A stretch of DNA of 64,000 bases from Octopus sinensis (taxonomy: Eukaryota), in NCBI RefSeq assembly GCF_006345805.1, contig NC_042998.1:156178001-156242000 (forward strand). The letters run 5' to 3'. A model generated the notes under the pieces. The model saw nothing but the letters and a program-made list of their open reading frames with translations. It did not search any database and was not told where the DNA came from. This document shows, one piece after another, positions 7,045-28,008 of the stretch. A program made the position numbers and the translations under genes. How positions within the stretch are numbered: position 1 is the first letter of the stretch; each line of letters opens with the position of its first letter.

Positions 7045-7250
7045 TGTTTTACTTGTTTCAGTCATGTGAATGCGGCCATGCTGCAGCACCACCTTTAGTC
7101 GAAGAAATCAACCCCAGGATTTATTCTTTGTAAGCCTAGCACTTATTCTATCAGTGTGTTCTGCCAAACGGCTACGTTACGGGTACGGAAACACAGCAAC
7201 ATCGGTTGTCAAGCGATGGTGGGGGTACAAACACACACATACACACATAT
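7045..7250 (-). mobile_element. 3' half of CORE-type tRNA SINE (family A)
   Basis: Reverse complement matches the GGTGCTCCAGCATGGCCGCA...TGACTGAAACAAGTAAAA tail of the copy at 59979. Confidence 0.8.
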
Positions 7251-7280
7251 ATAAATACACAAATATATACATACATATTT

Positions 7281-7434
7281 ACATTATTTACATTTGACGA
7301 ATATTTGTCCTCATATTGTTTGTTATTAACACAACGTTTCGGCTGATATACCCTCCAGCCTTCATCAGGTGTCTTGGGGAAATTTCGAACCTGGGTTCTC
7401 ATTCCTAAGGTCTTTTTCGATGTTGTTGTTGTTG

Positions 7435-7495
<61 letters not shown>

Positions 7496-7583
7496 CGTTA
7501 TTACTATTATTCAGGTCACTGCCTGGAATCGAACTCGACCAAAAGAACTCGGTTAGTAGCCCGCGATCTTAACCACTACGCCA
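7281..7583 (-). mobile_element. tRNA-head + (AAT)n + hammerhead module (pLTR of the adjacent PLE), copy 1
   Basis: Minus strand: A box TGGCGTAGTGG and B box GAGTTCGATTC (7583-7511), then an (AAT)n/(AAC)n tract, then an HHR. A near-identical second copy lies at 27439-27859. Confidence 0.8.
7328..7373 (-). ncRNA. Type I hammerhead ribozyme, canonical core
   Basis: ACAC-CTGATGA-A-GGCTG GAGGGTATAT CAGCC-GAAA-CG-TT-GTGT; palindromic AACGTT stem III. Confidence 0.85.
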
Positions 7584-7584
7584 A

Positions 7585-8310
7585 TTATGGAGTGAATTTT
7601 AGGGCTTGTAAATCTAATATTTTCCTATCCTTCCTTAATACCGCTTCCCATATGCCATTCATATCTGCACTTGATCTGCTTAGGAGGTTGTTGTGTCCTG
7701 CTTCTTTTAGTTTTCATATTTTCCAAACTTCCTCCCCAGCTATATCCGATTTTTCAATATCTCCTCATGTCATAGCTTTGCGATGTTCCTCTACTCTTAT
7801 TTTGAGGGGGTGGCATGTTTCTCCTTTGTATAACCTACCACAGCTGCATGGGATGGAGTACACACAGTTTTTGGTCATATTCTCTTCTATTGGTGGTTTT
7901 ACCCGAAGGAGATATTTGCAAAGTGTTGTATTACTCTTGAATACTGTCCTGATGTCATATGGGCCGCATATCTTTTGTATCTTTTCGGAGAGTTCTTTCA
8001 TATAGGATAGATAGACTGTAGACAGTTTATAGGTTTCATCCTCTCTTTTCTTCATAATTGGAGTAGATAGTATGTTTTTGGAGTAGTTGCTGCTTAATAG
8101 ATTGTTACTGAACTTGATTATTTCTTCGTGGTGGGTATCACGCTCGCTACTTATATTCTTTGCTCGATGTTTTAGGCACTGAGCAATTCCTCTCTTTACA
8201 CCGTATGGATGGTGGGAATTGAAGTTAAGGTATCGTCCAGTGAAGGTCGGCTTGCGGTATACGGATGTCCTGAATCCATATTTGGTGCGTGTTATTATTA
8301 AGTCCAGGGA
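7585..8310 (-). pseudogene. Penelope/Poseidon-type PLE ORF remnant: RT thumb plus GIY-YIG endonuclease
   Basis: ORF 7765..8388 has TSVYRKPTFTGRYLNFNSHHP and KNCVYSIPCSCGRLYKGET...IRVEEH. The decayed C-terminus ends ILDLQALKFTP* at 7585. Confidence 0.88.
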
Positions 8311-8329
8311 TGCTAGCATATATATGTGT

Positions 8330-8662: not shown

Positions 8663-10700
8663 TGTTGTTGTAGTAGTAAGAATAATAATGATAATGAAAA
8701 TAACAATAACAATATTAATAGTAGTAATACTCCTGGTTGCAATTTTATAGTTCAATCTTACTGTCTGTTATTAGGCCGATGTCTAATCGAAAACGTAATT
8801 TGTAAATGTACAATTGTAACTGATGCTGGTAACTTTATATATATAGGATGTTCAATAAATATGAAAGAACGTATCAATAACCATTTTTTCATCTTTTAGC
8901 CAATTGTACGTCCTTATCTAGCAAGATTTGGGAACTGAAGGAAAGCGGGATTAAATTTAGTCTTGAATTGGATATAATACGGAGAGCGCAGCCTTATAGA
9001 GATATGGATGAGCTGTGCTCTATGAAAACTTATGAGATTTTTAAGTATAGGGACAAGGAAACCTAATTAATGATAGATTAGACCTAAGGGTATCATGCAT
9101 GCATAGCGTCACCCAAACATTTAAGTATTTTCGAAATTAACGATTATAGGTGCCATACTTGAACTTTGATGGTGGAAATTAATGTCGTATCCGTTGTAAA
9201 CTTACCCTCTAGCATAAAATATAATAAAATCATGGGATATGGTGATATGGTGAATTAAATTTCATTGCATATGTTATAAGCTATATGTTTATGGTATGTA
9301 GTGTGCTATATATAATACTATACCATGATAACCCCTGCCTAGTTAGTCTGACTTCATCCTATTTTGGTGATTACACTATTTTCCTTTCTATGATGTTCTA
9401 CCCTACTAATTATATTATATATATTTGTAGTAACTTTATGTAAGTAAGTCTCCTTTCGACTAAATTACATATGCCATAGAAACTATAAAATCATACATAC
9501 AATAGCACCTGTAACATTACAACTTAGAAAATCTCTTCGGTCTGAATATCTTTAACTGCCCTCATTACTTCCATACCTCTTTTCAGGTTACCTTTATCTC
9601 TTCCCTACCTCAAATTTTAATCCACCGTCTCTTTGAATGTAGATCATATGTATTTCTTATTATTTTCTATAGATTCTTATTTTGTTTTCTTATTTTGATA
9701 TCCTTATCTATTAACATCTTCTCCCTTATAAATTGTTACTTTCCTTGTTCTTAGATATTTTTCAGTTACTTAAGTCTATGCGAGATGGTTATACTATATC
9801 CATATAAACGTATAAATATTTGAGTATGTATATATATAAATGTGTATCTGCATGCATCTTTACATTTTTCTGATTAATAATAATAGATAGCATGTTTATC
9901 TTTCCAGTTATTCCATAAGTAAATGCCCTGAGCAGCCTTTATAGAAACTGTCGAATAAGTAATTATGTACATGAATGAATGTTAAACTGATTCTATGTAA
10001 TCTTTCTTTTTTAATATTTTACCTATTTTGGTTATGATGTTTTTTTTTAAATCTTAAATTTTATTTTTATACGATATAACAATATTGTTTATAAGCAATC
10101 ACCCATAGTGCTCCAAAATAAAATTTCCTCTGTATTAACATCTTAGGTTTCTTAGCGTCTTGCCCCTTTAACTGGTAATTAACATCATTGTTTAAAGTAT
10201 TCCCCTACACATCTTTTTATAGACACTTATATCCAATTGACTATTCCTAATATCTTCTTTCCTCCCTGAGGAAAAGGGATATATATGATAATATGTATGA
10301 CCATACCTAGCCATGAGCTTTTAACTCACTCTTGTCCTTTATTCAAAACAGACACAGTCTTCTGGTCTTAGATTTAGTAGTTGATAAAGAGAAAAGTAAA
10401 TTAGAAACTAATTACAATCCCTTACGATACTATGATCCCAATAGGCTTCATGCGATTCTTGGAAGTGTAGTCTATTCTTAGCTATAATAGCGACAACATG
10501 AATTTCTTCATCTTCTTGCTCTATTAAAATATTTGAGAAAAATCATATTAATGTGTCCTACTGGTTAAAATCCTATATATTTATTTGTGCATCTGAAGAT
10601 GGCATTTAAATTGATGTAATGATTGCATTGTTCAATTAAATGGAGCCACTTTAAACGGTGGTACTGCATCACTACTTGATATCCTGTTGCTTATTTTGAT
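8330..10700 (+). mobile_element. Second PLE remnant: GIY-YIG with Cys-rich linker, no RT, long AT-rich 3' region
   Basis: CNFIVQSYCLLLGRC (CxCx5Cx5C spacing with one C lost), then NVICKCTI...YIGCS...ERINNH and the frameshifted SKIWELKE. A degenerate CTGAAGA-type HHR lies at 10588-10668. Confidence 0.65.
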
Positions 10701-11841: not shown

Positions 11842-13131
11842 TCAAAAGTTGAGTAAAAAGTAAGCAACGTTTTGAACCATAAAGAATTTGTACCGGATTT
11901 TTGCAGAGTTTTTTTTTTTTTGGAGGGGGGGTTAAAACATTTTTTGCAATTGTCTGATAATACAGACATAGACTTGCCCAAATGCATCAATAAATTAACA
12001 TTGATATTTTTCCCTGTTGTTATAATCATCTTAAATGGTACTATCAAAACGCGATATTCGAGCAATTTTGCTATTTAACTTCAAAAAAGGACGTAAAGCA
12101 GCTAAAACTGCTTGCAATATCAATGTAACATTTGGTGAGGAAATGATCAGTGAGTGGTCAGCTCGAAAATGGTTTGAACGATTTCGCAGTGGAGACCTGA
12201 GCTTTGAAGATCGTGACCGTAGTGGACGCCCATCTGTCATCGATGACGGCCAATTAAAAACCATCATTGAGAAAGATCCACGCAAAACTACTCGAGAACT
12301 GGTAAAAAAGAACTTCAAGTTAGCCAGAAAACTCCCTGCAACCGTTTGCATGCGATTGGGTAATCAAAAAAGCTCGACAAATGGGTACCACACGATTCGA
12401 ATGAAAGTCAGTAAATAAAAAAAATATGAAATTTGCTCGTCGCTTTTCCGTAACCAGACCGATCCATTTCTCGATAACTTGCGATGAAAAGTAGATTCAG
12501 TACAATAAGGAAAAAAAAAACGTTCTTCGCAGTGGTTGGACCAAAATAAAGCACCGAAAACCTTCTCTAAACCCAACCTCTTCAAAAAGAAGGTTATGGC
12601 GACTGTTTGATAGTGTACTGTTGGACTCATCCAGTATGACTTCTTAAAACCCTGAAAAACCATTACTGCAGAAACATATTGCTATGAAATTGCCAAAATG
12701 ATCGAAAAACTGTTACTCTTCCGTCCCAGACTGGTCAACAGAATAGGGCCAACCATTCTTCATAACAATACCAAACCACACGTTTCACTAATGACGCTCC
12801 AGAAGTTGAGGGAACTCGGCTACGAAATTCTTCCCCACCCAGCTTATTCCCGGATCTTTTTCCTTCCAACTACTACTTTTTCAAGCACCTTGAAGGTTTT
12901 CTGCGAGAAAAGGAGTTCAAAAATCAAACCGATGCTGAAAGTGCATTCAAAGAGTTCATCAGCTCCAGAACTCCAGATTTTTATGTTACCGGAATAAACA
13001 GACTTGTAACTCATTGGTAAAAAGGTGTTGATTGTAATGGTACTTTCTTTGATGAATAAAATGTCGGCATTGTTGAAATATATTGATGAATTACATGTTT
13101 CAAAACGTTGCTTGCTTTTTACTCAGCCTGA
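11842..13131 (+). mobile_element. mariner (DD34D) transposon, full length, pseudogenised
   Basis: TIRs ..TGAGTAAAAAG(T/C)AAGCAACGTTTTGAA flanked by TA. HTH ARKWFERFRSGDLSFEDRDRSGRP, WVPH-like motif, ILHNNTKPH, ILPHPAYS; frameshifted. Confidence 0.93.
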
Positions 13132-27859: not shown

Positions 27860-27933
27860 TATTTGTCAATAGAGGGTATATTATCCGAAGTATACTGTAC
27901 ATACATATATTATCCGATGTGTACAGTATACTT

Positions 27934-28008
<75 letters not shown>

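What the first reader, a model, noticed from the sequence alone, without database searches (positions are those of the whole stretch)
7281..8310. Penelope pseudo-LTR made of a tRNA-derived Pol III promoter, a microsatellite and a hammerhead ribozyme
Seen: on the minus strand the PLE RT/GIY-YIG frame stops at 7585. Within about 2 nt a tRNA-like head begins (A box TGGCGTAGTGG, B box GAGTTCGATTC), followed by (AAT)n and a canonical HHR at 7328-7373. Known: PLE pLTRs carry minimal type I HHRs, and Schistosoma Sm-alpha is a tRNA-related repeat with an HHR. Inference: this PLE has built a SINE-type internal promoter into its terminal repeat, giving a Pol III-driven, self-cleaving unit mobilised by the PLE RT/endonuclease rather than by a LINE. 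I know of no description of this in cephalopods.
Basis: partly seen in the sequence, partly recalled or inferred. Interest (0 to 1): 0.85.

Follow-up and report, generated by a model that had tools for sequence, protein, structure and literature searches.

The report
Penelope retrotransposon with tRNA-derived promoter
This is a decayed copy of a large Penelope-type jumping-gene family whose RNA likely starts at a tRNA-derived segment, which would let RNA polymerase III, normally a maker of short non-coding RNAs, drive a protein-coding retrotransposon.

Summary
The parts are real and family-wide, but the reading changes. The window holds a broken copy of a 2.65-kb Penelope-like element (835-codon RT/GIY-YIG frame; copies about 6% from their consensus).

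- The tRNA-like head follows the ORF end in 30 of 30 ORF-end-selected loci, so it is no chance insertion.
- The head is the 5' UTR of the next unit: head, (AAT)n, ATG, hammerhead inside the ORF.
- 63 of 70 head-selected arms begin at the head, against scattered truncation in ORF-end arms (p=1e-11), so the template RNA likely started there.
- The 2.65-kb sense strand has no TTTT (2.9 expected, P=0.03), which fits Pol III read-through.
- The '2 nt after the stop' is an artefact of this copy; the family gap is 36 nt.
- The hammerhead is the minimal, dimer-dependent PLE type, and copies span its cut site.
- Solo head-hammerhead units look like internally primed products of the same master, not a separate SINE.
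- RNA-seq shows only passenger transcription, so Pol III use is inferred (about 0.55).

No such PLE turned up in 8 paper searches; Cassandra and Helenus are the analogues.

The parts
7606..8317 (-). 5'-truncated, broken 3' part of the PLE ORF (RT C-terminal region and GIY-YIG-type endonuclease); in-frame TGA 7767-7765, roughly 70-nt deletion near 7737-7725; family stop position 7608-7606 reads CAA here
   Evidence: family of 150 scored matches among 7716 candidates; relatives carry PF00078; Pfam itself gave no hit for this fragment
7584..7605 (-). short 3' UTR; in tandem units the stop region puts a TATAA at -28 from the likely start site (TACAA in this copy)
7512..7583 (-). tRNA-derived head (A box 7583-7573, B box 7536-7525); first 14 nt of the junction deleted and a private TTTT at 7544-7541 in this copy
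   Evidence: the family head is 52 of 73 identical to a G000 tRNA-Arg(ACG), the best of 30 distinct tRNA sequences of 6 amino-acid types compared
7422..7511 (-). (AAT)n/(AAC)n tract of variable length in the 5' UTR
7400..7402 (-). first ATG of the next unit's 835-codon ORF
   Evidence: frame runs from here into RT in L186 and L193; consensus ORF; window frame 7172-7510
7328..7373 (-). minimal type I hammerhead inside the ORF start; predicted cut between 7333 and 7332 (GUU); predicted to need a dimer
   Evidence: descriptor in PMC4209133
7276..7327 (-). ORF 5' sequence up to the 'short' 3' end of the insertion (one of two inferred RT start sites; the roughly 30-nt tail is absent here)
   Evidence: PMC11167929
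27436..27862 (-). second, solo copy of the unit in the window (head from about +11, long AAT tract, hammerhead, short 3' end) without ORF end upstream

Best explanation
This is a dead copy of an endonuclease-bearing Penelope-like retrotransposon family in which a tRNA-Arg-like head with A and B boxes stands at the 5' end of the unit, and that head likely served as an internal RNA polymerase III promoter. Shown: unit order (head, AAT tract, ATG, hammerhead, tail, RT/EN ORF, 23-nt 3' UTR, next head), copy 5' ends piled at the head, no TTTT on the sense strand, inverted arms with complementary 3' ends. Inferred: RNA began at the G 13 nt before the A box, or at the tRNA +1 six bases later. The PLE protein nicked AT-rich DNA and began reverse transcription at two internal sites about 125 and 155 nt into the ORF, as shown in vitro for the Anolis element. 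Priming in the first pLTR of a transcript would give the abundant solo head-hammerhead units of up to 280 nt. Priming in the second pLTR of a tandem read-through transcript would give ORF-bearing copies such as this one. The hammerhead would cut only in tandem RNA and did not set copy ends. How the RNA was translated is unexplained; a parallel Pol II transcript may have supplied the protein.
For: 63 of 70 head-selected arms start between -14 and +28 of the head and 7 of 70 reach into the ORF end. Only 6 of 30 ORF-end-selected arms stop within 50 nt (median about 280 nt; Fisher p=1e-11). The commonest start is +7, which aligns with G1 of tRNA-Arg(ACG). Of 22 arms with the +1 bases intact, 9 are preceded by a perfect fold-back of the head, 5 by the 3' UTR and 8 by other sequence. 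By eye, 4 of 7 jumps from ORF-5' sequence onto a head land at 0/+1. TTTT count is 0 in 2651 nt against 2.9 expected in the ORF by codon shuffling (P=0.03). Single copies hold 0.38 per kb against 55 in 16.5 kb of 16 distant PLE relatives. TATAA at -28 matches the -31/-24 boxes of Pol III genes (PMC10137851, abstract). 3' ends are bimodal (24 at 239-250, 24 at 272-286, of 50), and one long plus one short in 20 of 28 inverted pairs by strict bins. The ORF-end-to-head junction also stands in reads of a second organism.
Against: No direct evidence of Pol III transcription. Three RNA-seq runs of related organism C show the unit on both strands equally, 87-89% of reads running into unlike flanks, the ORF beyond the tail at depth about 5-20 against about 3800, and no start pile-ups. 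That is passenger transcription of an old family, and strandedness of the libraries is not on record. G4+ runs are also absent (1.05 expected, P=0.28), and 2 of 16 relatives have no TTTT over 1.2-1.5 kb. The junction folds into a hairpin (-14.2 kcal/mol) whose loop sits at +5/+6, so the pile-up could come from fold-back on a longer RNA. Several +5 starts look like microhomology joins. A TATA at -28 suits Pol II as well. The B box reads GAGTTCG rather than the tRNA's AGGTTCG. PMC10886601 argues Pol III processivity limits such elements to about 1.3 kb.
Confidence: 0.55

Rival explanations
1. The head marks the RNA start but Pol II makes the RNA: a tRNA or SINE head was captured at the 5' end and the element uses an internal or TATA-type Pol II promoter, like Drosophila Penelope; the A/B boxes are a relic.
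For: An 835-codon ORF needs translation, which favours capped RNA (general knowledge). TATAA at -28. Penelope has an internal LINE-like promoter in its pLTR (PMC2377424, abstract). The TTTT deficit is only P=0.03.
Against: Both boxes are kept at tRNA spacing while acceptor and T stems have decayed. No intron is seen between head and ORF, unlike Penelope and Chlamys-3 (PMC8557442, passages). Solo units have no upstream TATA of their own.
Confidence: 0.22
2. The pile-up is a reverse-transcription artefact: long read-through RNA is copied until the palindrome at the ORF-head junction lets the cDNA fold back or switch template, so the head is a passenger and no promoter lies there.
For: Junction hairpin; 9 fold-backs of 22; +7 is also the first base after the hairpin loop; frequent small deletions at the junction, as in this copy.
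Against: The fold-backs are perfect copies of the head rather than of the imperfect 3' UTR arm. Direct jumps land at 0/+1. It does not explain the lack of TTTT or why a tRNA head was fixed exactly at the unit boundary.
Confidence: 0.13
3. One reading: the head-(AAT)n-hammerhead unit is a self-cleaving, self-propagating SINE that borrows the PLE protein.
For: Solo units outnumber ORF-linked ones about 9 to 1 among heads, and in DNA contigs of organism F the pLTR is several hundred times deeper than the ORF 5' body (a poor copy measure). Non-LTR retrozymes are proposed PLE dependants (10.64898/2026.07.22.740005). Small two-hammerhead derivatives exist (L202, L205/L217, L215/L216).
Against: Solo and ORF-linked units have like divergence (5.7% in 25 loci, 6.2% in 44), the same 9-bp duplication rate (5 of 22, 9 of 38) and mostly CpG variants; one column of about 180 differs at p=0.008 uncorrected. 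Solo units end at the inferred RT start sites and so would lack the further ORF bases the Anolis protein needs (to +172; PMC11167929). Copies span the hammerhead cut site.
Confidence: 0.1

Closest known systems
Poseidon from Anolis carolinensis (PAc), Penelope/Poseidon clade PLE (PMC11167929; abstract, main text and part of methods read)
   Same: Single ORF with RT then GIY-YIG; hammerhead overlapping the ORF start; two internal RT start sites giving a 30-40-nt tail; tandem and inverted insertions.
   Different: No tRNA-like head described in the parts read; promoter assumed to be in the pLTR. Clade membership of this family was not tested by a tree.
Minimal hammerheads of metazoan PLEs (PMC4209133; abstract, results, discussion read)
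   Same: Long stem II, extra base before it, G-C closing pair, palindromic 2-bp stem III, predicted dimer; mostly solo copies and inverted pairs 100-700 bp apart.
   Different: No Pol III head reported in the parts read.
TRIMp3 elements: Cassandra, Helenus, Ajax (PMC10886601; passages read)
   Same: A small-RNA-derived Pol III promoter inside the terminal repeat of a retroelement; proposed origin by SINE insertion.
   Different: True LTRs, PBS/PPT, TSDs, non-autonomous and at most about 1.3 kb. Here the head sits on a 2.65-kb protein-coding PLE.
Schistosoma Sm-alpha/Sj-alpha repeats (PMC6765202; passages read)
   Same: Pol III-type promoter followed by a type I hammerhead in a repeat.
   Different: Active canonical-type hammerhead that frees monomers from tandem RNA, no ORF. 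Here a minimal hammerhead sits inside an ORF and copies are not cut-site bounded.
Non-LTR retrozymes (10.64898/2026.07.22.740005, parts 1-2 of 5 and term search; PMC7229834, passages)
   Same: Short type I hammerhead units related to PLE pLTRs and proposed to be moved by PLEs.
   Different: Defined as head-to-tail tandems; the preprint has 0 mentions of tRNA or Pol III. Units here are mostly solo or inverted pairs.

Membership tests
EN+ Penelope-like element | single ORF with PLE-type RT and C-terminal GIY-YIG endonuclease | tested here: met
   835-codon consensus ORF with the RT aspartate motif and a GIY-YIG-like C-terminus (motif names recalled); homologues carry PF00078, some PF01541. Pfam gave no hit on two of this family's own fragments.
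EN+ Penelope-like element | pseudo-LTRs from partial tandems | tested here: met
   L352 runs hammerhead-ORF-head-hammerhead-tail; L225 runs ORF end-head-hammerhead-ORF start.
EN+ Penelope-like element | inverted 5'-truncated arm and a 30-40-nt tail on one end only | tested here: met
   48 of 70 head arms have an inverted arm upstream; long/short ends complementary in 20 of 28 pairs.
EN+ Penelope-like element | minimal type I hammerhead in the pLTR | tested here: met
   sequence and fold against the PMC4209133 descriptor; activity not testable here.
Penelope/Poseidon clade | RT phylogeny with named references | not tested
   no named reference proteins were at hand; nearest homologues are unnamed, 43-68% identical among the top rows.
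tRNA-derived SINE (SINE2) | tRNA-derived head with A and B boxes at the 5' end | tested here: met
   52 of 73 identity to tRNA-Arg(ACG); 5' pile-up. The tRNA set was incomplete and Arg(ACG) was sought on purpose.
tRNA-derived SINE (SINE2) | non-autonomous lineage propagating apart from its partner | tested here: not met
   the head is the 5' UTR of the coding element; no solo-specific variants.
tRNA-derived SINE (SINE2) | transcription by RNA polymerase III | tested here: inconclusive
   indirect only; RNA-seq uninformative.
tRNA-derived SINE (SINE2) | LINE-like 3' tail and target-site duplications | not tested
   TSDs were not searched; the 3' ends are PLE-type.
Non-LTR retrozyme | head-to-tail tandem of short hammerhead-bearing units | tested here: not met
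   most units are solo or inverted; only a few two-hammerhead derivatives.
TRIMp3 (Cassandra/Helenus/Ajax) | true LTRs with PBS and PPT, no coding capacity | tested here: not met
   coding PLE architecture; PBS and PPT were not searched for.

The most novel reading that the evidence does not exclude
[quoted passage not shown] Because PLEs prime inside the 5' part of their RNA, one transcript yields both full elements and a SINE-like swarm, showing one route by which Sm-alpha-like or retrozyme-like Pol III-hammerhead repeats could arise from PLEs.
Probability: 0.35. Interest if true: 0.85.

Novelty: new variant of a known kind. Interest (0 to 1): 0.64.

Why it matters
Small-RNA promoters are known on non-coding hitch-hikers (SINEs, Cassandra, Helenus), and PMC10886601 argues that autonomous partners must use Pol II. 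A PLE with a fixed tRNA head, 5' ends at that head and a terminator-free ORF would be a counter-example, and would raise the question of how its RNA is translated. Whatever the polymerase, the fixed 5' end lets thousands of copies be read as a record of PLE insertion: two RT start sites used on opposite arms, fold-back and template jumps. This supports in a genome what was shown in vitro for the Anolis element. It also warns that such units may be annotated as SINEs or tRNA pseudogenes.

Tried and rejected
- DNA search with the head alone found 0 candidates because common words are skipped; exact patterns were used instead.
- Rfam, ARAGORN (also relaxed, on the consensus) and PDB gave nothing for head, hammerhead or ORF.
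- The first tRNA comparison lacked Arg(ACG) and was a tie among Ala, Arg(TCT) and Cys.
- Chance SINE insertion in this copy: rejected. A free head with another body: not seen, though 3 of 30 heads lack the hammerhead. A diverged donor SINE family was not searched for; the octopus OR1/OR2 SINEs (tRNA-Arg origin recalled; sequences not available) could not be compared.
- 27 metagenome loci with distant PLE relatives (25-45% identity, one short 67% hit): no tRNA call or A/B-box match in any; a minimal-hammerhead motif in 6. 16 of the 27 entered the TTTT control; 11 short or near-duplicate ones were left out.
- A search for other PLE families in G000 with a distant homologue returned mostly this family as far as places could be matched, so there is no in-genome control family.
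- No intact or 5'-complete full-length copy was found.
- No RNA holder was on record for the stretch; reads came from another organism by species label.
- Earlier findings: three look-ups, nothing.
- Eight paper searches showed no PLE with a tRNA-derived head. Repbase, Dfam and subscription papers were not searchable. No supplements were read; the repeat library of PMC13282606 may hold this family.

Full report
Observation. On the minus strand the window shows a PLE-type reading frame, a tRNA-like head (A box 7583-7573, B box 7536-7525), an (AAT)n tract and a hammerhead at 7373-7328. The frame is broken by a TGA at 7767-7765, a further stop and a deletion. Rfam and ARAGORN call neither RNA part.

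The arrangement is a family trait. A search with the ORF-head junction gave 1160 candidates, 40 scored, most covering the whole junction. Of 29 other loci picked by protein similarity, 27 have the head behind the ORF end. Of the first 30 exact matches to an ORF-end 36-mer, 30 do. Of the first 30 exact matches to a head 36-mer, 27 have the hammerhead downstream. Exact counts are 239 (ORF end), 684 (head) and 1404 (hammerhead); the last two patterns hold CpGs, which have decayed in about a quarter of copies, so the true gradient is steeper.

Anatomy. Two loci show the linker, hammerhead and tail running in frame into the RT ORF. One shows the tandem junction followed by the ORF start (L225), and one is near full length with a pLTR at both ends (L352). 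A majority consensus is 2651 nt with an 835-codon ORF starting at nt 122, and copies match it at about 94%. The unit is: head (1-82), AAT tract, ATG, hammerhead (about codons 10-24), tail, ORF, 23-nt 3' UTR. So the head is the 5' UTR of the downstream unit. The head aligns end to end with a G000 tRNA-Arg(ACG), 52 of 73 identical, score 70 against 59 for the next type, among 30 distinct sequences. That set is incomplete and Arg(ACG) was sought deliberately. tRNA-Arg heads are common in mollusc SINEs (PMC4758252, passages), so the donor may have been a SINE.

Where the RNA began. I took 70 of 684 head matches (the first 30, then 20 more on C1 and 20 on C2). 63 begin between -14 and +28 and 7 reach the ORF end; the commonest start is +7, the tRNA's first base. 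ORF-end-selected arms are truncated anywhere from 0 to 2258 nt upstream, 6 of 30 within 50 nt (p=1e-11). Among 22 arms with intact +1 bases, 9 are preceded by a perfect fold-back of the head, 5 by the 3' UTR and 8 by other sequence. By eye, 4 of 7 jumps from ORF-5' sequence onto a head land at 0/+1. These are what a template ending at +1 would give. The junction is also a hairpin, so fold-back on a longer RNA is not excluded.

Insertion mechanism. 48 of 70 head arms have an inverted arm of the same unit just upstream. In 50 of 1404 hammerhead matches, 3' ends fall at 239-250 (24) or 272-286 (24), with 2 shorter; in 20 of 28 inverted pairs one arm is long and the other short by strict bins. This is the PLE tail signature, which PMC11167929 traced in vitro to two internal RT start sites, with hammerhead cleavage dispensable. 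All 50 arms run past the predicted cut site at 191, so cleavage did not set their ends. The motif matches the minimal, dimer-dependent, weakly active type (PMC4209133) and has a GUU triplet.

Pol III or not. For: A and B boxes at the start site; TATAA at -28 in tandem context (compare PMC10137851, abstract); no TTTT in 2651 nt against 2.9 expected (P=0.03); 0.38 per kb in single copies against 55 in 16.5 kb of 16 distant relatives. Against or neutral: G4+ is also absent (P=0.28); 2 of the 16 relatives lack TTTT; a TATA at -28 suits Pol II; translation of an uncapped RNA is unexplained; and RNA-seq from related organism C shows strand-balanced reads that leave the unit into unrelated flanks, hardly any ORF 5' body and no start pile-ups, as expected of passenger copies of an old family. 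That run does show the same ORF-end-to-head junction in organism C, and the unit in DNA contigs of organism F.

Solo units. They outnumber ORF-linked ones about 9 to 1 among heads, yet match them in divergence (5.7% against 6.2%), in a 9-bp duplication (5 of 22 against 9 of 38) and in variants. Internal priming in the first pLTR of a transcript explains them without a separate SINE lineage (inference).

Comparison and verdict. It is a member of the EN+ PLEs by ORF, pLTR, tail and hammerhead; the clade was not tested. It works like Cassandra/Helenus in carrying a small-RNA promoter in its terminal repeat (PMC10886601, passages) and resembles Sm-alpha in pairing a Pol III-type head with a hammerhead (PMC6765202, passages), but belongs to neither. 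Eight searches and term searches in PMC8557442, PMC7229834, PMC13282606 and the 2026 retrozyme preprint found no PLE with a tRNA-derived head; repeat databases and supplements were not seen. My estimates: head integral to the family, near certain; RNA start at the head, about 0.85; Pol III promoter, about 0.55; whole coding unit made by Pol III, about 0.35. New variant of a known kind; interest 0.64.

Noticed in passing
L202, L205/L217, L215/L216 (G000:C27 at about 15.08, 7.60 and 7.657 Mb); similar L214/L230: Short derivatives with two hammerheads about 300 nt apart share one junction (about 119 nt of ORF 5' sequence back to the linker) at three places; they could fold a double hammerhead and look like nascent retrozymes, or be local duplications.
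   Followed up: partly
G000:C2:3121912-3157867 (L350): Tandem array of tRNA-Arg(ACG) genes, about 95 of the first 100 listed matches, period about 206 bp.
   Followed up: no
window 8786-9090, + strand: Remnant of a different GIY-YIG element pointing away from this PLE; Pfam GIY-YIG E=7e-4, below cut-off.
   Followed up: partly
window 27880-27940: An inverted repeat of about 19 bp just upstream of the solo unit at 27862-27436.
   Followed up: no
L151, L152, L170 (G000:C4 about 104.35 Mb; C9560): A 4.6-kb tandem duplication that carries one inverted-arm insertion of this family in each unit, present on two contigs at about 99% identity.
   Followed up: no
window 12035-13020, + strand: Broken frames that look like a mariner-type transposase (recalled resemblance).
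   Followed up: no
consensus position about 231 (L222:1483): A second hot spot of arm joints, where a 4-base microhomology with the head start appears to join the two arms.
   Followed up: partly
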